A stretch of 64,000 bases of DNA from Escherichia phage vB_EcoM_TH18, in sequence record ON075799, one strand, 5' to 3'. Positions 3,878-40,701 of this stretch are shown piece by piece (positions within the stretch are counted from its first letter, which is position 1; the number at the start of each line of letters is the position of its first letter). A program made the translations under genes and the position numbers. Under the pieces are notes generated by a model. That model was not told where the DNA came from and did no database searches. It saw only the letters and a program-made list of their open reading frames with translations.

Positions 3878-4275
3878 TTCACCCCCAGACTATCGTTATA
3901 AATATCAACAAACTGGTTATCTAGGCAAACCTGTTTTCCTGCTTGTGTTTTGCTATAACTTTTAACCTTTTTATCAAGGTCTTCTTTCAGTTGGTTATTA
4001 ATTTCTCTCTCTTTCACCAACATGGTTGACAACTCATCGATCTTATCCTGCTGTTGTTTTTTAAAAGCGTTGTTGTGATCTCTAACTTGCTGGTTAATCC
4101 TCTCCCATTTAAGGTCAGTATCGCTGACACCTGCGTTGTAGGATGATGTTAACTGGTCATTATACCAATGCTTTATCTCCACAACACCCCAAACGAGCAT
4201 CACACAACACAAAACGACACCTATCTGTTTTATGTTCTTAGAAAAGAAAGTTAACAGCGTTTTAAACCATATCAT
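3874..4275 (-). CDS. i-spanin-like protein (N-terminal TM helix plus coiled coil)
   Basis: 133 aa; hydrophobic N-terminus (IGVVLCCVMLVWGVV) followed by charged heptad-rich region. Confidence 0.55.
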   Translation of the reverse strand: MIWFKTLLTFFSKNIKQIGVVLCCVMLVWGVVEIKHWYNDQLTSSYNAGVSDTDLKWERINQQVRDHNNAFKKQQQDKIDELSTMLVKEREINNQLKEDLDKKVKSYSKTQAGKQVCLDNQFVDIYNDSLGVK

Positions 4276-5609
4276 GATATATCACCATCACACTCAATAA
4301 TATTTTCAATCTTCAACGTTGTTTTTCTGTTTTCAGAAATACACAGACTATTAAAATTGCTAATATCGTACTGGATCTTAGATGTATCGCTTACAGAAAC
4401 CTCTAACAGAACTGCTCCAGGCTGATATATTGTAAACCCATAACTATCTCCCTCCCCGTTCTCACACAGAATTTTGTACTCTCCTCTTGCCTCCGCTTCA
4501 TCAACATAAAGTCTGAGAGTTGGAAAATTATTTGCTATATCTTCTTTGTGAAGCCCAACATGATGTTTATCTTTTGTTGGCATCATGAGATAGAAAACTT
4601 CCGCAGGACAAACTCCATATAGTTTTGTAAAATATTTCCTACCTGTTGCTTTTCTTAATCTTTGGAAAATACTGAACATATTAACTTTAGATACATCATT
4701 AAACGGCAACGGTTGCACAGGGGTAACATTTTTGTCTACCTGCTGGCAACAAGATTCTAATCTGTCTAGGAACTCAACCAAAGAATCAAGTGAAAACTGT
4801 TTTGTCTCATCAAAGATATCTGACAGTTTCATTCCGTACATCCCGCTAAGATGTGACTTTGCCGATTCCCAACTTTCTATCTGAAGGCTGGCAATAGCCA
4901 TAGCCAGTTTCATTGTCTCTTTTTTCGAAATTGTATAGCCACGAGATTTGTATTTTTCAGATCTCAAAAGTGATATAATCGGGTATTCAGTCTTATGATT
5001 TACAACTAAGACTCTTTGAGCAATATGTTTTAAGAAATTGCTATCAAATTCCCACACACCATCCTTGAAGTTAAAAGCGCCCATGTTGATTGTAAAATCA
5101 ACTTTGCTAAAGATATCTTCTGTTGTTTTGAACACATCCACAGCAACACACTGTAATACAGGATCCTGCCCAAAGTACAGCGTTACGCTCTTATCTGTCA
5201 CACCAACTCTGGTAAGATTTGGGAGATCATCTTCTTCAAGATGAAAATTTTCACATCTGGACAAAGGGTCTGTGAAACATAAATGCGTATCCTGCCCATT
5301 ATCAAGGTTATAAAAATACCTAAAAGTTCTTTTTTGATTTTCCCATCCGTTTGTCTGTGCGGTTAAATCATACTTTCCACTTAAAAGATTTTTATCCATC
5401 ATGTACGCAATGAATATCTCAAGATTTTCCCAAGATGGGAAATACAAATCAAGATCGTTGACTTTACTATTAGAGAACAAAGAGGTTATTGCCCCGCCAG
5501 CTATCTTAACATCCAGCTTCGACAATAAATCATAAACACCTTTTGGTATAAAAGAGCACAAAATGTCGTACTCTCTTTGAAAATCTTCTTTTTTGAAAAC
5601 ATGCAACAT
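4272..5609 (-). CDS. Pol-beta-superfamily nucleotidyltransferase-fold protein, function unknown
   Basis: Start refined to MLHVFKK (ATG at 5609); motif IAGGAITSLFSNSKVNDLDLYF fits the hG[GS]-x9-13-DhD nucleotidyltransferase signature; long C-terminal domain unassigned. Confidence 0.55.
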   Translation of the reverse strand: MLHVFKKEDFQREYDILCSFIPKGVYDLLSKLDVKIAGGAITSLFSNSKVNDLDLYFPSWENLEIFIAYMMDKNLLSGKYDLTAQTNGWENQKRTFRYFYNLDNGQDTHLCFTDPLSRCENFHLEEDDLPNLTRVGVTDKSVTLYFGQDPVLQCVAVDVFKTTEDIFSKVDFTINMGAFNFKDGVWEFDSNFLKHIAQRVLVVNHKTEYPIISLLRSEKYKSRGYTISKKETMKLAMAIASLQIESWESAKSHLSGMYGMKLSDIFDETKQFSLDSLVEFLDRLESCCQQVDKNVTPVQPLPFNDVSKVNMFSIFQRLRKATGRKYFTKLYGVCPAEVFYLMMPTKDKHHVGLHKEDIANNFPTLRLYVDEAEARGEYKILCENGEGDSYGFTIYQPGAVLLEVSVSDTSKIQYDISNFNSLCISENRKTTLKIENIIECDGDIS

Positions 5610-34257: not shown

Positions 34258-34539
34258 ATGACTGTAAAAATCCCTAAAGGTGGCAGACCAGATAGAAATG
34301 CATGTGACATGCGTGTAAGGGTAGGGAGAATGTGTCTAATTTATGGAATAACTTATCCACCAATGGTGCGACTTAATGGTAAAATATGTAAGGTCATCGA
34401 CATACCAAAAGATAACACAACACGCTTCTTGTGCAAGGTCAAAGATGAAGAGAAGGTTTTTAACATCCCACACAAAAACCTAACAGTTTTGGATCTTAAT
34501 GACAACATTGTTATCTCTAAATACCGTTGTATAAGCTAA
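34258..34539 (+). CDS. hypothetical protein (93 aa), lone plus-strand gene within the minus-strand block
   Basis: Start refined to MTVKIPKGG with RBS aggag; own promoter and terminator. Confidence 0.5.
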   Translation: MTVKIPKGGRPDRNACDMRVRVGRMCLIYGITYPPMVRLNGKICKVIDIPKDNTTRFLCKVKDEEKVFNIPHKNLTVLDLNDNIVISKYRCIS

Positions 34540-34542
34540 CAT

Positions 34543-34566
34543 AAAAGCCCCGCATGGGGCTTTTAT
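34543..34566. terminator. bidirectional rho-independent terminator
   Basis: aaaagccccg-cat-ggggctttt with A-run and T-run on either side, between convergent genes. Confidence 0.7.
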
Positions 34567-34568
34567 GT

Positions 34569-35309
34569 TTATTCAAAATCATCAACACCACTATCGGTAA
34601 GGTTTTCTCTGCTTGAAGGTTTTGTCGAAAGAACTTGCTCAAGCAGAGAGGAAAATTTCTGCAAATTACTTACAGAAGAAGTACCTGCTGCCATGGCAAG
34701 CATATCCACTTCTTTTTCGGTAGGTTGAGCCCAGTCTAGAAACATCTCTTTCATGTACAACGTTGATGACCCTATTGGTGTGGCGAGGTCAACCCTATCA
34801 GCATAGATCCAGAAAAGAACCTCTTTCTCTATACATACACACAAAGCAGCACCCAACGAGTATCCTGTAACGATGGATGGATATCTTGCAACGAGGATCT
34901 CGACATTCAGGTCATCCCAGTGAAATACAACACCCAAATACTTCATACCCACAATGTCTTCCACTGCGGGTTTTAGCTCCTCATGGGAAGAAAGGGAGTC
35001 ATAGTTAATATTCTTTATGAATTTAAGAACGTCTTGGCGGTTGTAGGCACAATCGTTATCACCTTGCTTCCAATAACCCCAAAATGAAGTCGATAAATTC
35101 AACCAAAAACTTGCAGTTGTCCCTAATGTCTCAGCCAGTTTTTCAGCCACATCTTCTGATACTTCTTCCATGTTATAAAGGATGGTTCTCAACTTATTTA
35201 CCGGTATACCAGATTTGTCGGCAAGATCATCCACACACCAACCTAATGGATCTAGATATTCGTGGATAATAACCTCACCTGGTGATACTGGTGCTCTTTC
35301 TTTTAACAT
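34569..35309 (-). CDS. HTH (XRE/HigA-like) DNA-binding domain fused to an unknown C-terminal domain
   Basis: Start refined to MLKERAP; N-terminus PGEVIIHEYLDPLGWCVDDLADKSGIPVNKLRTIL resembles HigA/XRE HTH; ~180 aa C-terminal part unassigned. Confidence 0.55.
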   Translation of the reverse strand: MLKERAPVSPGEVIIHEYLDPLGWCVDDLADKSGIPVNKLRTILYNMEEVSEDVAEKLAETLGTTASFWLNLSTSFWGYWKQGDNDCAYNRQDVLKFIKNINYDSLSSHEELKPAVEDIVGMKYLGVVFHWDDLNVEILVARYPSIVTGYSLGAALCVCIEKEVLFWIYADRVDLATPIGSSTLYMKEMFLDWAQPTEKEVDMLAMAAGTSSVSNLQKFSSLLEQVLSTKPSSRENLTDSGVDDFE

Positions 35310-35365
35310 TCTTGCTCCTCTATCTATATCAGAAAACCCTGCAAAGCAGCAGGGTTCTGTCACTC

Positions 35366-35569
35366 TTAACACTTAGGTGAGCATTTATCGCACGAACATG
35401 AAATTCCGTGGAAACACAATCCTGTCCCGTCTTTCTTGACCCCTGTTCCACCACACTGGGGACAACTATCGTGTAAACATTTTGTTTTTGTTGTCTCCTC
35501 TTTATCTTTATTAAAGAGGTTTTTCATAATCATTTTCTGTTGTTCAATCGTAAACATTTGCGTCCCCAA
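35366..35569 (-). CDS. small Cys-rich (zinc-binding-like) protein (67 aa)
   Basis: CPQCGG...CFHGISCSCDKCSPKC cysteine pattern. Confidence 0.5.
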   Translation of the reverse strand: MGTQMFTIEQQKMIMKNLFNKDKEETTKTKCLHDSCPQCGGTGVKKDGTGLCFHGISCSCDKCSPKC

Positions 35570-35850
35570 AATCTTTCAAGTGCTTCTGCCTCTTCCATGT
35601 TCGGGAAGATACCGTAGAAACAGAACTTACCTTTAGAGAAGTACGGAATAAATACCCGCCCATCACTGGTTTCAAACATCTTATCAAAATTTGGTAGCTT
35701 CAGGTGTGATTTTATAGCCTCTTTAATACTTTTATCCCATTGATGCTGCCATTTACAGGCTTTTAGGTATTCACTAATATTGTAAGAACCTACTCTCCTC
35801 AAAATACTGGTGAGAAACTTTTTGTTTTTACGAATAATCTTCTTTTTCAC
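35530..35850 (-). CDS. hypothetical protein (106 aa), paralog of the next gene
   Basis: N-terminus MKKKIIRKNKKFLTSIL similar to MKKKLARRNKLFLSKSL of 35828..36133. Confidence 0.5.
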   Translation of the reverse strand: MKKKIIRKNKKFLTSILRRVGSYNISEYLKACKWQHQWDKSIKEAIKSHLKLPNFDKMFETSDGRVFIPYFSKGKFCFYGIFPNMEEAEALERFWGRKCLRLNNRK

Positions 35851-36133
35851 TCAAAAGCCTCATTTCTTCAAACTGCTCTGGTGTCAATAAACTTGTTCCT
35901 ACACGACTGCCATTACCACACATAAGAGGTACGGCAATCATATGGCTATCCTTTTCTGCATTACCTAAATCAAGGTACTCCCCATAACGTTTGATAAGTC
36001 GAATGCTCATTTTTGAATTAGCTAAAGCCCTTGTGTTATAGAGATAATCCTCAAGGTACAAATGTAGATCGTTTGCCACCTTTAAAGATTTTGATAAGAA
36101 TAATTTATTACGCCGTGCCAGTTTTTTCTTCAT
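35828..36133 (-). CDS. hypothetical protein (101 aa), paralog of the previous gene
   Basis: Shared N-terminal basic motif with 35530..35850. Confidence 0.5.
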   Translation of the reverse strand: MKKKLARRNKLFLSKSLKVANDLHLYLEDYLYNTRALANSKMSIRLIKRYGEYLDLGNAEKDSHMIAVPLMCGNGSRVGTSLLTPEQFEEMRLLSEKEDYS

Positions 36134-36326
36134 ACACCCCTCGCTTGTGCCTGTACATTGCCAGAGGCCATACAGAACTCACTATAAAGCATTTCCATGC
36201 CCAACCCCATGCAGTTTTTGGTGCATAGACCTGTTCAAGTGTTTTACTATTCTCCATCTCTGCGGTATGCACAAACCATACCGCAATATACAATGTAACT
36301 GTAATGTAGATAAAGCTATTAATCAT
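36108..36326 (-). CDS. small membrane protein (72 aa)
   Basis: Two hydrophobic segments (FIYITVTLYIAVWFV; CFIVSSVWPLAM). Confidence 0.45.
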   Translation of the reverse strand: MINSFIYITVTLYIAVWFVHTAEMENSKTLEQVYAPKTAWGWAWKCFIVSSVWPLAMYRHKRGVYEEKTGTA

Positions 36327-37380
36327 TCATCTTATCCCAACACATTTGTTGCGCTGTCATCAAGACGTCAGCAGCAAAATCAAGGTCTGTTGACTTCGGT
36401 AAATGCGTGCTCTTGTACAGAGTGTTACGAATATAATCATCCTTCTCTTCTGCCCAAGCCAAGAGCTTCTCCAAAGACCATGCACCATTCCTGATTGCAA
36501 GAAGCTCCTGAGCATCAGGTCTTTTTACTAAGACTTTACCTTCTGCTAGGATCTCCTCAGCCATACGCATCAATCTTACCAAATGGAGAGCATGTTTGCA
36601 ATCGTACCCGTACTTTTCTTCTAAGTCATGCCGAACCAGATTTCTGTTTTTAACCCATGCCCAGTAGTTCTTATGTTTTTCCTTTGCTTGTTTATGCTCC
36701 TCTGCCAGATATTTAACAATTAAAATTGGCTTACGTCTCTTATCCTCGTCAGAGAACTGCTCGTAAGGAACTTTACGAATAGAACCATCAGAGTTAAACA
36801 AGCCAGCATTGTCGTGTGTTCCGATCACGCCATAGATATTATCACCCATGGGTAAAAAGACACACAACTTGTTAAGATCATCCAACATTTTCTGGAAGTC
36901 TTTGTGTTTTGTAAGATTATCATCCATCCACGAGTGTGTCAAGCGCATGAACTCTTTTTGTGTTGGTTGCTCTTTAGGTTGCGGGTTATTAATCCATTTA
37001 TTATGGCCTTTGATACGCTTAAGTTGCGCCATCGCATACCCAGAAAAAGTAAAAGCAACTTTGCTGGATAGGAGTTTTGGCGCTTGCTCGCGTAGGTACT
37101 CGTAAACATCTGAAGTTTGCAGAATGTCACCTCTATCAACAAACATAAGCTCGATGATGTTTGGGTTCATATCAACGAACAACTTCATGTAGTTTGTTAG
37201 CTCATACAGCTTACCATCCTCTTCATCAATAAGGGTCATTTCTCTGTCAACGAAAAATGGGGTAAGAATGCTTTTAGGCTCTGCACAATAAATTCCGCGA
37301 ATATCCACATCGGATGTTGGTAAGTTAGTTCCATATGCAATGCTGCCGGAGTAACAGCGCATTAGTTCTAGTTTCTTCAT
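36319..37380 (-). CDS. Pol-beta-superfamily nucleotidyltransferase, function unknown
   Basis: N-terminal signature YSGSIAYGTNLPTSDVDIRGIY (GS-x9-13-DhD) typical of minimal and cGAS/DncV-like nucleotidyltransferases; 353 aa. Confidence 0.6.
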   Translation of the reverse strand: MKKLELMRCYSGSIAYGTNLPTSDVDIRGIYCAEPKSILTPFFVDREMTLIDEEDGKLYELTNYMKLFVDMNPNIIELMFVDRGDILQTSDVYEYLREQAPKLLSSKVAFTFSGYAMAQLKRIKGHNKWINNPQPKEQPTQKEFMRLTHSWMDDNLTKHKDFQKMLDDLNKLCVFLPMGDNIYGVIGTHDNAGLFNSDGSIRKVPYEQFSDEDKRRKPILIVKYLAEEHKQAKEKHKNYWAWVKNRNLVRHDLEEKYGYDCKHALHLVRLMRMAEEILAEGKVLVKRPDAQELLAIRNGAWSLEKLLAWAEEKDDYIRNTLYKSTHLPKSTDLDFAADVLMTAQQMCWDKMND

Positions 37381-37739
37381 TCTCGTACCTTTGTGCTTTT
37401 TCTTACATTATCCCAAAAATCAAGGATATTTTGGTATCGGATCTTGTCTTCCATATATTCAGCCTCATCACGAAGATCGCATACATGGTCTATTAAGGCA
37501 CACACTTCATTATAGTGTTCTGTATCACTTGTGATGTGCTTAATCATACAAGATCCTGCTTTCCACTTTGAAAGTGAGTATCTCAGATTATCATCTTTCT
37601 CTGTGGGGGACGCGTCAACTAATATTTTTGCCTTATTGCCTTTTATCTTTTGTACCACCCCTCTGCGCAATTCATTATTACCCCAATAGATAAATACTGT
37701 ATCGCCAACAAACAGTTTTGTTCCGCTTGCGTCTCTCAT
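37377..37739 (-). CDS. hypothetical protein (120 aa)
   Basis: ORF from six-frame track; coupled to the nucleotidyltransferase gene (overlapping stop/start). Confidence 0.5.
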   Translation of the reverse strand: MRDASGTKLFVGDTVFIYWGNNELRRGVVQKIKGNKAKILVDASPTEKDDNLRYSLSKWKAGSCMIKHITSDTEHYNEVCALIDHVCDLRDEAEYMEDKIRYQNILDFWDNVRKSTKVRE

Positions 37740-38149: not shown

Positions 38150-38647
38150 CTACTCACCTTTTAGCTTAAAACTTTTCAACGTTTTGATAAAGTCTTTCTC
38201 TGCTGGTGTGTAAGTGTGAACTAAACCTGTTTCTTCACAGGTGTAGGTATCATTAACCTCCATTGCATGTTGAGGGATAAATGTACCTTCAGGAACAGGC
38301 TTATATTCTGGGTTGTAGATAAACTCCGGCAGCACAACAGCCACAGCAGTCATTGCTCCATTCAAGGCTTCCTCTTCTTCACGCCACCAAGCATATGGAT
38401 AAGTTTTGAGAGGCATAAGTTGAGCAAGAAAATCTTGGAGTACTGACTGATAACCACCATTTAAAATAATGATGGTCTTATCTTTTTCTCTCCAACATTT
38501 CAACCAGTGGTGTGCGGTTAACTCCTCTGGCGCTCCTGCTGGTTGGTCATACCATGTCATGAGTTCCGCAATAGCATGTGCCGATTGGATACCTGCATGG
38601 ATACCGGAGATATACTGATTAACAACACAATACATTCTTGTTTTCAT
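38150..38647 (-). CDS. hypothetical protein (165 aa)
   Basis: ORF from six-frame track. Confidence 0.5.
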   Translation of the reverse strand: MKTRMYCVVNQYISGIHAGIQSAHAIAELMTWYDQPAGAPEELTAHHWLKCWREKDKTIIILNGGYQSVLQDFLAQLMPLKTYPYAWWREEEEALNGAMTAVAVVLPEFIYNPEYKPVPEGTFIPQHAMEVNDTYTCEETGLVHTYTPAEKDFIKTLKSFKLKGE

Positions 38648-39187: not shown

Positions 39188-40432
39188 TTAGAATAACATA
39201 TCCCTGCTAATTGCTTTACGAATAGCATCAATACGGGCTACTCGCACAGCTTCACCAATCTCTTTACCCTTCTTACCTTTTTCCAGAAGAGGGTTTGTGA
39301 TAGCTTTAGAATCAACTTTTGTCATAGCGTCATAGGCTTCCAACAAAATATGACCTTGAAGGTAAGGTTTATGCCTAAAATCACCACCTCTTCCTTTAGC
39401 ATCACAATAACATGCATCTGCAAGTGTGTAAACCTTCATTTTCTGATCAGCTTGTCCAGCAGCTTCAAATATTTTCATGATGCTTTTTGGTTTCAAACCG
39501 TTGTTACCATCTGTGGGAGAGATGGCGTGCACTTTTGTGTGATTTTCTGCAACATATTTTGCCGTGTCACGATAGATATTATAAATCTTTAACCTTTCGC
39601 ACAAAGATTGGATAACATCCGCACCAGCTTTTTCATGACCATGCAAATTACCATTGTTCTTGTAAGTTACAGCTTTGCCAAAATCATGGCAAAGCACAGC
39701 AAACTTGGTCAGTGGATCAGCTTCTAATTCATCGGCAACCCGTAACGCTAGAATTGTATGAGTGTAAGCATCCCCTTCTGGGTGGTGTTCTTTAGGTTGT
39801 TGTACACGACGCAGGGCTTCCAGTTCAGGAAGCTCGCCAATACGTCCCATATTGACAGCAAAAGATCTGAAATAATCACTCTTTAAGGCTTTCAACATTT
39901 CATTCCATTTACGCTCGGCGCTTATTTCTGCCAAAGAGTGTCGGTTGTCATAAGCCAGTTTAAAAGTCTCTGGGTGGATATGCCATTCTTCCCCAAGCTG
40001 GGCTTTAAATCTAAACAGGCGTAGAATACGTAACGGGTCTTCAATAAATGCCTGTGATGTATGACGTAATGTTTTAAGTCCTAAATCAACCTGGCCACCA
40101 AAAGGATCAATAATCTCACCACTGTCAACATCCATCGCCATGGAGTTGATGGTTAGATCTCTACGTGCCAAATCCTCTTCCAGAGTTACATCTGGGCTAA
40201 AGCATACCTCAAATCCTTTATGGCCTTCGCCTGTTTTTCTTTCTGTGCGTGCAAGAGCGTACTCTTCTTTTGTTTCTGGGTGAAGATAAACTGGAAAAGA
40301 TGCGCCAACTTGTGTGAACCCTCTTTTCAACATCTCTTCATGCGTAGCTCCAACAACAACATAATCACGGTCTGATAATTCACGACCCAATAATTTATCT
40401 CTAACCGCCCCACCTACCAAATATACCTTCAT
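39188..40432 (-). CDS. cca: tRNA nucleotidyltransferase (CCA-adding enzyme) with HD domain
   Basis: Start MKVYLVGGAVRDKLLG...DRDYVVVG (class II head) and HD-domain region; ATGA overlap with upstream stop. Confidence 0.85.
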   Translation of the reverse strand: MKVYLVGGAVRDKLLGRELSDRDYVVVGATHEEMLKRGFTQVGASFPVYLHPETKEEYALARTERKTGEGHKGFEVCFSPDVTLEEDLARRDLTINSMAMDVDSGEIIDPFGGQVDLGLKTLRHTSQAFIEDPLRILRLFRFKAQLGEEWHIHPETFKLAYDNRHSLAEISAERKWNEMLKALKSDYFRSFAVNMGRIGELPELEALRRVQQPKEHHPEGDAYTHTILALRVADELEADPLTKFAVLCHDFGKAVTYKNNGNLHGHEKAGADVIQSLCERLKIYNIYRDTAKYVAENHTKVHAISPTDGNNGLKPKSIMKIFEAAGQADQKMKVYTLADACYCDAKGRGGDFRHKPYLQGHILLEAYDAMTKVDSKAITNPLLEKGKKGKEIGEAVRVARIDAIRKAISRDMLF

Positions 40433-40701
40433 TTCTTCACCCACATGTTCATATAATTAACAATATCTTTTATGGTTCTCTTGCCGTCCAGTGGATAAAC
40501 CATGTCATCGCTCATCCCACCGTGTTTTAGCATTGCTACCAGCCTAGTATATACCCCTTTTGGTCTTTTGCAAGTTCTTTTCTTCCATTTATGACCGTCT
40601 GGGGAGTACTCCTTATCTTCAAGAGAGATATGAAGTATATCTCCTATAAACTCTTTTGCCTGTGTGCTGTAAAGTGGACGGTAGAATATGTAGAATTTCA
40701 T
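40429..40701 (-). CDS. hypothetical protein (~90 aa)
   Basis: Start tentatively MKFYIFYRPLY; stop overlaps cca start. Confidence 0.45.
   Translation of the reverse strand: MKFYIFYRPLYSTQAKEFIGDILHISLEDKEYSPDGHKWKKRTCKRPKGVYTRLVAMLKHGGMSDDMVYPLDGKRTIKDIVNYMNMWVKK

What the first reader, a model, noticed from the sequence alone, without database searches (positions are those of the whole stretch)
35530..36133. Tandem paralogous small genes with a shared basic N-terminus
Two adjacent ~100-aa ORFs begin MKKKIIRKNKKFLTSIL and MKKKLARRNKLFLSKSL but diverge afterwards. Local duplication followed by divergence is a common signature of host-range or counter-defence specificity genes.
Basis: seen in the sequence. 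Interest (0 to 1): 0.4.

Follow-up and report, generated by a model that had tools for sequence, protein, structure and literature searches.

The report
Diverged tandem paralogs, uncharacterised phage protein family
Two neighbouring small genes in this E. coli phage are true but very old duplicates from an unstudied family of small, positively charged proteins; the family's few bacterial relatives sit beside antitoxin-type genes, and the second phage copy is broken in several related phages.

Summary
ORF A (36133..35828, 101 aa) and ORF B (35850..35530, 106 aa, GTG start) lie on the minus strand of an Avunavirus (Av-05-like) phage and overlap by 23 nt.

Pairwise BLASTP aligns only residues 1-18. 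Profile methods extend this:
- hhalign of a broad ORF A family against the ORF B family: 77 columns, A1-82 to B1-82, probability 90%, E 1.7e-6.
- An ORF A-only HMM finds ORF B as the only significant hit in the window (E 5e-5).
- AlphaFold gives both the same element order: helix, helix, four short strands, helix.

So these are real paralogs, and the duplication is old (about 20% identity).

The family (phrog_12809-like, starting M-K-[KR]-K-L-x-x-R-N-K, pI about 10) has no significant match in Pfam, NCBIfam, PADLOC or PDB.

The tandem pair occurs only in Avunavirus relatives. ORF A is intact in all seven lineages. ORF B is broken in four of them, by at least three independent lesions.

The only two loci found in bacterial genome assemblies pair the family with a MazE/AbrB-like or a TacA/RHH-like gene. 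A HigA-type protein lies two genes downstream here.

My best inference, with modest confidence, is a toxin-like, nucleic-acid-directed effector family. The counter-defence specificity reading is neither shown nor excluded.

The parts
35828..36133 (-). ORF A, 101 aa, ATG start (orthologue of Av05_0060). This is the conserved copy of the family. Predicted elements: helix 2-22, helix 27-50, strands 52-54, 60-62, 65-72 and 77-83, helix 85-100.
   Evidence: Searches give the ORF, annotation and start. phrog_12809 matches at E 1.6e-33. AlphaFold2 mean pLDDT is 93. The gene is intact in all 7 Avunavirus-like lineages. dN/dS is 0.27-0.39.
35530..35850 (-). ORF B, 106 aa, GTG start directly after an in-frame TGA (orthologue of Av05_0059). 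This is the divergent paralog. It keeps the N-terminal motif and the hairpin motifs 'VFIP' and 'SKGKFCFY'. At aligned positions it lacks R45, R49 and G51, which are invariant or nearly so in the ORF A family.
   Evidence: Searches give the ORF and start. Family membership: phrog_12809 E 1.4e-4, hhalign probability 90%, ORF A-only HMM E 5e-5. The AlphaFold2 model has pLDDT 65 and the same order of elements as ORF A. The gene is broken in L024-26, L028, L029 and L030.
36068..36133 (-). Codons 1-22 of ORF A. They encode the family's N-terminal basic helix with the motif M-K-[KR]-K-L-x-x-R-N-K.
   Evidence: N9 and K10 are invariant, and M1 and K4 nearly invariant, across 31 family sequences.
35785..35850 (-). 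Codons 1-22 of ORF B, carrying the same N-terminal basic helix motif.
35828..35861 (-). The A/B junction. It holds the Shine-Dalgarno GAGG (35861..35858), the in-frame TGA (35853..35851) and the GTG of ORF B (35850..35848), all inside the last codons of ORF A. The 23-nt overlap suggests translational coupling.
   Evidence: Read directly. In L010 a 1-nt difference ends ORF A at this TGA, so there the two genes abut without overlapping.
34569..35372 (-). Context, with the link only inferred. This protein has an N-terminal HigA-family antitoxin HTH domain and a C-terminal domain of about 170 aa. It lies two genes downstream in the same tightly packed minus-strand gene string.
   Evidence: TIGR02607 scores 57.9 bits against a cut-off of 47.7. 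phrog_1381 matches at 7e-86. No convincing promoter or terminator separates it from ORF A and ORF B.
35366..35569 (-). Context. A Cys-rich small protein of 63-67 aa (CPQCGGTG...) between ORF B and the HigA-like gene. Its start region overlaps the 3' end of ORF B.
   Evidence: phrog_17149. The 3' end of ORF B is kept even where ORF B is broken.

Best explanation
Shown:
- ORF A and ORF B are ancient tandem paralogs.
- They belong to an uncharacterised family of small proteins (about 75-130 aa). The 29 phage and metagenome members of alignment A8 have pI 9.2-10.6; the two Alteromonadaceae-type members have an acidic C-terminal tail and pI 5.5-6.1.
- The family starts at residue 1 with M-K-[KR]-K-L-x-x-R-N-K.
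- The predicted fold is two long helices, four short strands and a C-terminal helix, with no significant counterpart among solved structures.
- ORF A is the copy kept in every relative. ORF B is a divergent copy, intact here but independently destroyed in several sister lineages.

Inferred:
- The family is a toxin-like effector. It probably binds or cuts a nucleic acid through a cluster of basic residues formed where the N-terminus (K2, K4, R8, N9, K10) packs against R45 and R49 of helix 2.
- In bacteria the effector is held in check by a neighbouring antitoxin-type DNA-binding protein.
- In the lytic phage, antitoxin-free or loosely linked copies are expressed from the accessory (non-structural) gene string to act on a host target, either for host takeover or for interference with host defence.
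- ORF B would be a second, dispensable specificity or a redundant copy.
For: Paralogy and family membership:
- hhalign gives probability 90%, E 1.7e-6, over 77 columns.
- An ORF A-only HMM finds ORF B at E 5.2e-5, with the next hit at 0.5.
- phrog_12809 hits both ORFs.
- The two AlphaFold2 models have the same order of secondary-structure elements.
- Distant members share 'GGRVLVPILYKN' and 'RSSKGMLLYY' with ORF B's 'DGRVFIPYFSKGKFCFY'.

The family is uncharacterised and has no known fold:
- No hit reaching a curated cut-off in Pfam or NCBIfam, and only chance-level PADLOC scores.
- No PDB sequence hit.
- Foldseek against PDB finds nothing at E <= 0.001.
- Only two uncharacterised phage proteins match in BFVD.

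Basic character: 29 of the 31 sequences in alignment A8 have pI 9.2-10.6.

Link to toxin-antitoxin modules:
- The Alteromonadaceae member (132 aa) is the second gene of a 4-nt-overlapping pair. The first gene is an 80-aa MazE/AbrB-like protein (PF04014, E 3.5e-5). The pair is the first cargo after tnsABCDE of a Tn7-like element.
- The Klebsiella grimontii member (110 aa) is followed, with overlap, by a TacA1/DUF1778 ribbon-helix-helix ORF (30.2 bits, cut-off 21).
- These are the only two loci found in the bacterial genome collection.
- In the window a HigA-family protein lies two genes downstream.
- In L020 a weak UPF0150/HicB-like ORF lies two genes downstream.

ORF B is dispensable: it carries a 1-nt deletion in L024-26, an 88-nt deletion plus further lesions in L028 and L030, and several indels in L029. 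ORF A is intact in all of these.

Both genes are real: dN/dS is 0.21-0.39.
Against: - There is no experimental evidence of toxicity or of nucleic-acid binding.
- No known toxin fold (RelE/ParE, HicA, MazF, PIN) matches the confident ORF A model.
- In the phage no antitoxin-type gene is directly adjacent. The HigA-like gene is separated from ORF B by a Cys-rich gene.
- Several other members (L008, L011, L014, L019/L023, L021, L027) have no recognisable antitoxin neighbour.
- The MazE-like hit is just below Pfam's gathering score (24.1 against 24.7).
- The antitoxin association rests on only two bacterial loci.
- The Klebsiella RHH ORF may be a bare repressor without a toxin-binding tail.
- The basic cluster is deduced from helix register, not measured on coordinates.
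Confidence: 0.4

Rival explanations
1. Counter-defence or host-range specificity genes. ORF A and ORF B would be inhibitors of host immune or toxin systems. The duplicate would have diverged to cover a second target, and its patchy retention would reflect which hosts each phage lineage meets.
For: - ORF B is intact in some lineages and broken in others, while ORF A is constant.
- The neighbourhood is accessory and RNA-repair flavoured: a RlaP-type nucleotidyltransferase, a CCA-adding enzyme and a HigA-type antitoxin domain protein.
- Family member P0014 sits directly upstream of a Gad2 (anti-Gabija) homologue.
- dN/dS of ORF A (0.39) is the highest among nine neighbouring genes in the comparison with Av-05.
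Against: - There is no gene-wide positive selection; all dN/dS values are below 0.4.
- The duplication is ancient and never expands beyond two copies.
- Bacterial members lie in toxin-antitoxin-like gene pairs on a transposon and a mobile region, which is unusual for an anti-defence protein.
- Only a single Gad2 adjacency was seen.
- This reading is not exclusive of the toxin-like effector reading.
Confidence: 0.25
2. Small DNA-binding regulators or nucleoid-associated proteins. The basic helical hairpin would bind DNA, and the family would act as transcription factors or architectural proteins. The MazE-like and RHH neighbours would then simply be co-regulators.
For: - pI is about 10 and the long N-terminal helices are basic.
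- The genes lie among small non-structural genes of the phage.
Against: - No helix-turn-helix or ribbon-helix-helix family match.
- Strict conservation from Met1 together with R45, R49 and the D55-x-x-x-x-E60 motif looks more like a defined site than a generic DNA-binding surface.
- A 4-nt-overlapping pair with a tailed MazE-like protein is the classic antitoxin-toxin layout.
Confidence: 0.2
3. Not paralogs. The shared start would be a chance or convergent lysine-rich N-terminus, for example selected as an A-rich region that favours translation initiation, on two unrelated small genes.
For: - Pairwise BLASTP aligns only 18 residues.
- hhalign with narrow profiles reaches only residues 1-32, with probability 77%.
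- Two other phage ORFs (W115_152; L021 6490-6693) share only the N-terminal module.
Against: - Broad-profile hhalign covers 77 columns at probability 90%.
- phrog_12809 aligns ORF B residues 1-72.
- The ORF A-only HMM aligns ORF B residues 1-76 at E 5e-5.
- Both models show the same element order: helix, helix, strands, helix.
- ORF B's beta-hairpin motif recurs in distant family members.
Confidence: 0.04

Closest known systems
PHROG families phrog_12809 and phrog_7065 (function unknown)
   Same: ORF A is a full-length member of phrog_12809 (E 1.6e-33). ORF B matches it weakly over residues 1-72. Krischvirus W115_152 belongs to phrog_7065, starts VKRKLIKRNKEFL..., and matches phrog_12809 over its first 46 residues.
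   Different: These are sequence clusters with no assigned function, structure or mechanism. ORF B's own lineage had no PHROG of its own in this search.
Type II toxin-antitoxin toxins, especially the RelE/ParE superfamily
   Same: - Size is about 100 aa and the proteins are basic.
- The order of secondary-structure elements (two N-terminal helices, then a small antiparallel sheet) resembles ParE on paper; this comparison is from my own knowledge.
- Two bacterial members form overlapping gene pairs with MazE/AbrB-like or TacA/RHH-like genes.
- A HigA-type protein is nearby in the phage.
   Different: - No sequence match to any toxin family.
- The phage copies have no directly adjacent antitoxin.
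- Toxicity is untested.
Phage anti-defence loci (for example Gad2-containing loci)
   Same: One family member lies immediately upstream of a Gad2 homologue. ORF B varies between intact and broken among close relatives, as accessory anti-defence genes often do.
   Different: No homology to any described anti-defence protein was found. There was a single adjacency only, and bacterial members occur as transposon cargo.
GIY-YIG nuclease domain
   Same: ORF B residues 70-97 give a weak Pfam hit (E 0.027, 15.2 bits). By eye, the 'GRVFIPYFSKGKFCFYG' hairpin recalls GIY...YIG.

Membership tests
M-K-[KR]-K-L-x-x-R-N-K small basic protein family (phrog_12809-like) | N-terminal motif beginning at residue 1 | tested here: met
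   ORF A starts MKKKLARRNK and ORF B starts (V/M)KKKIIRKNK. N9 and K10 are invariant across 31 sequences.
M-K-[KR]-K-L-x-x-R-N-K small basic protein family (phrog_12809-like) | Profile match beyond the N-terminal motif | tested here: met
   For ORF A, phrog_12809 matches at 1.6e-33 over the full length. For ORF B, phrog_12809 matches at 1.4e-4 (residues 1-72), the ORF A-only HMM at 5.2e-5 (residues 1-76), and hhalign gives probability 90% over 77 columns.
M-K-[KR]-K-L-x-x-R-N-K small basic protein family (phrog_12809-like) | Predicted topology of two helices, four strands and one helix | tested here: met
   ORF A model pLDDT 93. ORF B model pLDDT 65, with the same order of elements and lower confidence in helix 2.
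M-K-[KR]-K-L-x-x-R-N-K small basic protein family (phrog_12809-like) | Conserved R45, R49, G51 and the D55...E60 motif of helix 2 and the following loop | tested here: inconclusive
   ORF A has all of them. At aligned positions ORF B has E/S, S/A and L/K instead. ORF B does carry K43 and K47 two positions away, and the alignment is uncertain in that region.
Type II toxin-antitoxin toxin | Gene pair with an adjacent antitoxin gene | tested here: inconclusive
   For the phage ORFs this is not met in the strict sense: the neighbours are a 72-aa membrane protein, the paralog itself and a Cys-rich protein, and the HigA-type gene is two genes downstream. For bacterial relatives it is met twice. It is not met in L014 or L027.
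Type II toxin-antitoxin toxin | Growth inhibition that is relieved by the cognate antitoxin | not testable with these tools
   This requires expression experiments.
RelE/ParE superfamily | Sequence or fold match to RelE/ParE | tested here: not met
HicA / dsRBD-like toxins | Helix-strand-strand-strand-helix dsRBD fold match or HicA Pfam match | tested here: not met
   No Pfam hit. dsRBD chains appear only at Foldseek E of about 1 and probability <= 0.2.
GIY-YIG nuclease | Pfam PF01541 above the gathering score | tested here: not met
   15.2 bits against a cut-off of 22.6, for ORF B only; 2 of 31 members give the hit.
Known anti-phage defence components (PADLOC) | Match to a PADLOC model | tested here: not met
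   Only chance-level scores, with E >= 0.001.

The most novel reading that the evidence does not exclude
The family would be a previously unrecognised toxin or effector class with a fold absent from the PDB. Its invariant extreme N-terminus (M-K-[KR]-K-L-x-x-R-N-K), together with R45 and R49, would form the active or binding site. Bacteria would keep it as a type II-like module that swaps between MazE-, RHH- and possibly HigA-type antitoxins. Lytic phages would have taken up antitoxin-free copies, duplicated in Avunavirus, for host takeover or counter-defence.
Probability: 0.25. Interest if true: 0.6.

Novelty: new member of a known kind. Interest (0 to 1): 0.35.

Why it matters
A tandem pair of diverged small phage genes is commonplace in itself. 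What adds some value:

- The pair led to a rare family with no significant match in Pfam, NCBIfam or PDB. The ORF A model is confident (pLDDT 93) and matches no solved fold.
- The family's N-terminus is strictly conserved from the first residue.
- The only two loci found in bacterial genome assemblies pair it with antitoxin-type genes.
- The pair is a natural experiment: one paralog is always kept, the other is lost repeatedly.

If the toxin-like reading is right, this adds a new toxin family and a case of phage uptake of such a toxin. If it is wrong, the genes remain two more small phage proteins of unknown function.

Tried and rejected
- **Pairwise BLASTP and narrow-profile hhalign** align only the first 18-32 residues. 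These profiles were too shallow (Neff about 1.2), and the broader profile superseded them.
- **tblastn against 50,697 phage records** finds the two genes only in Avunavirus. At E <= 10 it adds only Krischvirus N-terminal matches. tblastn with P0015 against phages and with the Klebsiella member against plasmids found nothing.
- **Family libraries.** Pfam, NCBIfam and PADLOC give no meaningful family for any member. I rejected the weak GIY-YIG, TetR-C_39 and AbiEi hits as noise.
- **Conserved synteny with Gad2 and zinc-finger genes.** I tested whether the window's RlaP-type nucleotidyltransferase and Cys-rich protein are homologous to the Gad2 and Cys-rich neighbours of P0014. BLASTP found no similarity.
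- **Promoter and terminator scan around the pair.** Counts were not above shuffled expectation, so no operon boundary could be defined.
- **HigA-like gene as a tracer.** The full-length protein is itself restricted to Avunavirus, so co-occurrence with ORF A and ORF B tells us nothing.
- **The search for related loci with the full family alignment** failed because no stretch was conserved enough. A narrower alignment worked.
- **Literature search on Av-05 and Avunavirus** turned up no title or abstract that deals with these genes; none of the papers was opened.

Full report
**Source of the window and the two genes.** Bases 34500-37500 of the window are 100% identical to Escherichia phages 18-1-2, 19-1-2 and 24-2-1, and 93% identical to Escherichia phage Av-05 (Vequintavirinae, Avunavirus). 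The finding lies on the minus strand. ORF A is 36133..35828 (ATG, 101 aa) and ORF B is 35850..35530 (GTG, 106 aa). They correspond to Av05_0060 and Av05_0059. The 18-1-2 record does not annotate ORF B.

ORF B's GTG follows an in-frame TGA directly, so it is the earliest possible start. GAGG lies 7 nt upstream of it. ORF A has GAGGGG 3 nt upstream of its ATG. The genes overlap by 23 nt. They sit in a string of overlapping minus-strand genes, and no promoter or terminator signal above shuffled expectation separates them.

**Is the similarity real?** BLASTP aligns only residues 1-18 (10/18 identical, E 6e-4). hhalign with shallow profiles aligns residues 1-32 (probability 77%). Four further results overturn it.

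- phrog_12809 matches ORF A over its full length (1.6e-33) and ORF B over residues 1-72 (1.4e-4).
- A HMMER search of 1.84 billion representative proteins with the ORF A profile found nine small proteins of 75-132 aa. All start MK[RK]KLxxRNK and share R45, R49-x-G51, D55-x-D-x-A-E60 and V68-P69. A tenth hit, a 519-aa repeat protein, I discarded as a false positive.
- The broad profile built from these sequences, with no ORF B sequences in it, aligns to the ORF B family over 77 columns (A1-82 to B1-82, probability 90%, E 1.7e-6). As an HMM it finds ORF B as the only significant hit among 1131 six-frame segments of the window (E 5.2e-5, next best 0.5).
- Distant members carry 'GGRVLVPILYKN' and 'RSSKGMLLYY', which match ORF B's 'DGRVFIPYFSKGKFCFY'.

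AlphaFold2 gives ORF A a confident model (pLDDT 93): helix 2-22, helix 27-50, strands 52-54, 60-62, 65-72 and 77-83, helix 85-100. ORF B's model is weaker (pLDDT 65) but has the same order of elements. Eight of the ten identical N-terminal residues use different synonymous codons. The similarity is therefore kept at protein level and does not come from recent gene conversion. I conclude that ORF A and ORF B are real paralogs from an old duplication, at about 20% identity.

**Copy number across relatives.** An HMM scan of all fetched loci finds the tandem pair only in Avunavirus-like sequences. Other phages, contigs and bacteria have a single copy within the fetched flanks. Two other ORFs, L021 6490-6693 and Krischvirus W115_152, share only the N-terminal module.

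Within Avunavirus-like lineages ORF A is intact in all seven examined. ORF B is intact in the window, Av-05 and L010, and is broken elsewhere:
- L024-26 carry a 1-nt deletion. This variant is seen in 74 contigs.
- L028 carries a 9-nt deletion plus an 88-nt deletion.
- L030 carries a 1-nt deletion plus the same 88-nt deletion.
- L029 carries a 1-nt insertion and two 12-nt deletions.

That is at least three independent inactivations. Where both are intact, both evolve under purifying selection. dN/dS is 0.39 for ORF A and 0.21 for ORF B against Av-05, and 0.27 for each against L010; neighbouring genes range from 0.04 to 0.39.

**Context clues to function.** The only two loci found in bacterial genome assemblies both pair the family with an antitoxin-type gene.

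- In Alteromonadaceae M269 and matching metagenome contigs, a 132-aa member is the second gene of a 4-nt-overlapping pair. The first gene encodes an 80-aa MazE/AbrB-like protein with a C-terminal tail (PF04014, E 3.5e-5, 24.1 bits against a gathering score of 24.7). The pair is the first cargo after tnsABCDE of a Tn7-like element.
- In Klebsiella grimontii, a 110-aa member is followed, with overlap, by a TacA1/DUF1778 RHH ORF (30.2 bits against a cut-off of 21), next to an IS3-type transposase (read by eye from the ORF translation, not scanned).

In the window a protein with a HigA-family antitoxin domain lies two genes downstream (TIGR02607, 57.9 bits against a cut-off of 47.7), after a Cys-rich gene. 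In L020 a weak UPF0150/HicB-like ORF lies two genes downstream.

Several other members have no such neighbour. One of them, P0014, lies directly upstream of a Gad2 homologue. The window's neighbourhood includes a RlaP-type nucleotidyltransferase and, by Av-05 annotation, a CCA-adding enzyme.

**Interpretation.** Paralogy and family membership are shown, and so is ORF B's dispensability. Function is inferred. A small basic protein that pairs with two unrelated antitoxin superfamilies in mobile DNA is, by the usual guilt-by-association logic, a candidate toxin or effector.

In a helical hairpin with its turn at residues 23-26, K2, K4 and R8 would face R45 and R49. This suggests a basic site at the open end of the hairpin, next to the sheet. 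I deduced this from helix register and did not measure it on coordinates. At aligned positions ORF B lacks R45, R49 and G51, which is compatible with a changed or lost activity.

The counter-defence reading is neither shown nor excluded, and it can coexist with the toxin-like reading. A role as a plain DNA-binding regulator is the other serious rival. The chance-similarity reading is essentially refuted.

**Verdict.** The functional interpretation is only partly supported. As a feature this is ordinary: two diverged small phage genes. It gains some interest because the family is uncharacterised, has no solved structural relative, has a plausible toxin-antitoxin link, and shows a clear pattern of one paralog always kept and the other repeatedly lost.

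Noticed in passing
window 36319..37380 (-), insertion point near 36600; L010 3716-5815, L024 433-2532, L028/L029 716-2815: The RlaP-type nucleotidyltransferase is 353 aa here and in Av-05 but 699 aa in several relatives. The extra 346 aa or so sit between ...EKYGYD and CKHALHLV. They begin with Cys and end ...SLHGN before a Cys, which looks like an intein with a homing-endonuclease domain. The window carries the intein-free allele.
   Followed up: partly
window 34569..35372 (-): An N-terminal HigA-family antitoxin HTH domain (TIGR02607, above cut-off) is fused to a C-terminal domain of about 170 aa (phrog_1381 and phrog_19128). The full-length form is found only in Avunavirus. The HTH part has relatives in jumbo Klebsiella phages and in phage D6. 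No HigB-like toxin was recognised next to it.
   Followed up: partly
window 35366..35569 (-); L011 1978-2208; L020 3801-4004: Small Cys-rich proteins lie directly next to family members in three unrelated contexts. The window's protein has CPQCGGTG, and L011's has CxxCxGxG-type motifs. BLASTP shows no similarity between the window and L011 proteins, so this may be coincidence.
   Followed up: partly
window 35530..35660 (-), alignment A12 columns about 250-330: The last 90 nt or so of ORF B are almost invariant across all seven Avunavirus-like lineages, including those where ORF B is broken. This stretch contains the start region of the downstream Cys-rich gene. An alternative-frame 47-aa ORF (35544..35687) becomes the reading frame in the frameshifted variant P0006.
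   Followed up: no
L003 2501-2746 (Escherichia phage W115, Krischvirus); L021 6490-6693: ORFs of 81 aa and 67 aa start VKRKLIKRNKEFLNNCIKVAN... and MKRKLKARNNKRLKWIFQKAD... They share only the N-terminal module of 20-45 aa with the family. They may be truncated relatives, or the N-terminal helix may be a portable module. L021 also carries a full-length member 2.2 kb upstream.
   Followed up: partly
L004/L005/L006/L016 (Alteromonadaceae M269 and metagenome contigs): A Tn7-like element (tnsA, B, C, D and E) carries cargo that starts with the MazE-like gene and the family member. Further cargo includes a Phage_P4_cII-like gene, a 'Beta_protein' (PF14350) gene and a weak Peptidase_M78 (ImmA-like) gene. 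This may be a defence or addiction cargo island.
   Followed up: no
L002 (GenBank OK136181.1) 4031-4351, equivalent to window 35530..35850: ORF B, which starts with GTG, is not annotated in the 18-1-2 record. It is annotated in Av-05.
   Followed up: yes
window 38150..38647 (-) and about 39191..40456 (-): A 165-aa 'hydrolase' and a CCA-adding tRNA nucleotidyltransferase (named from Av-05 annotation and from Pfam on the L010 orthologue) lie upstream in the same gene string as the RlaP-type enzyme. This suggests a cluster for tRNA or RNA maintenance. NCBIfam gave no hit for the 165-aa protein.
   Followed up: no
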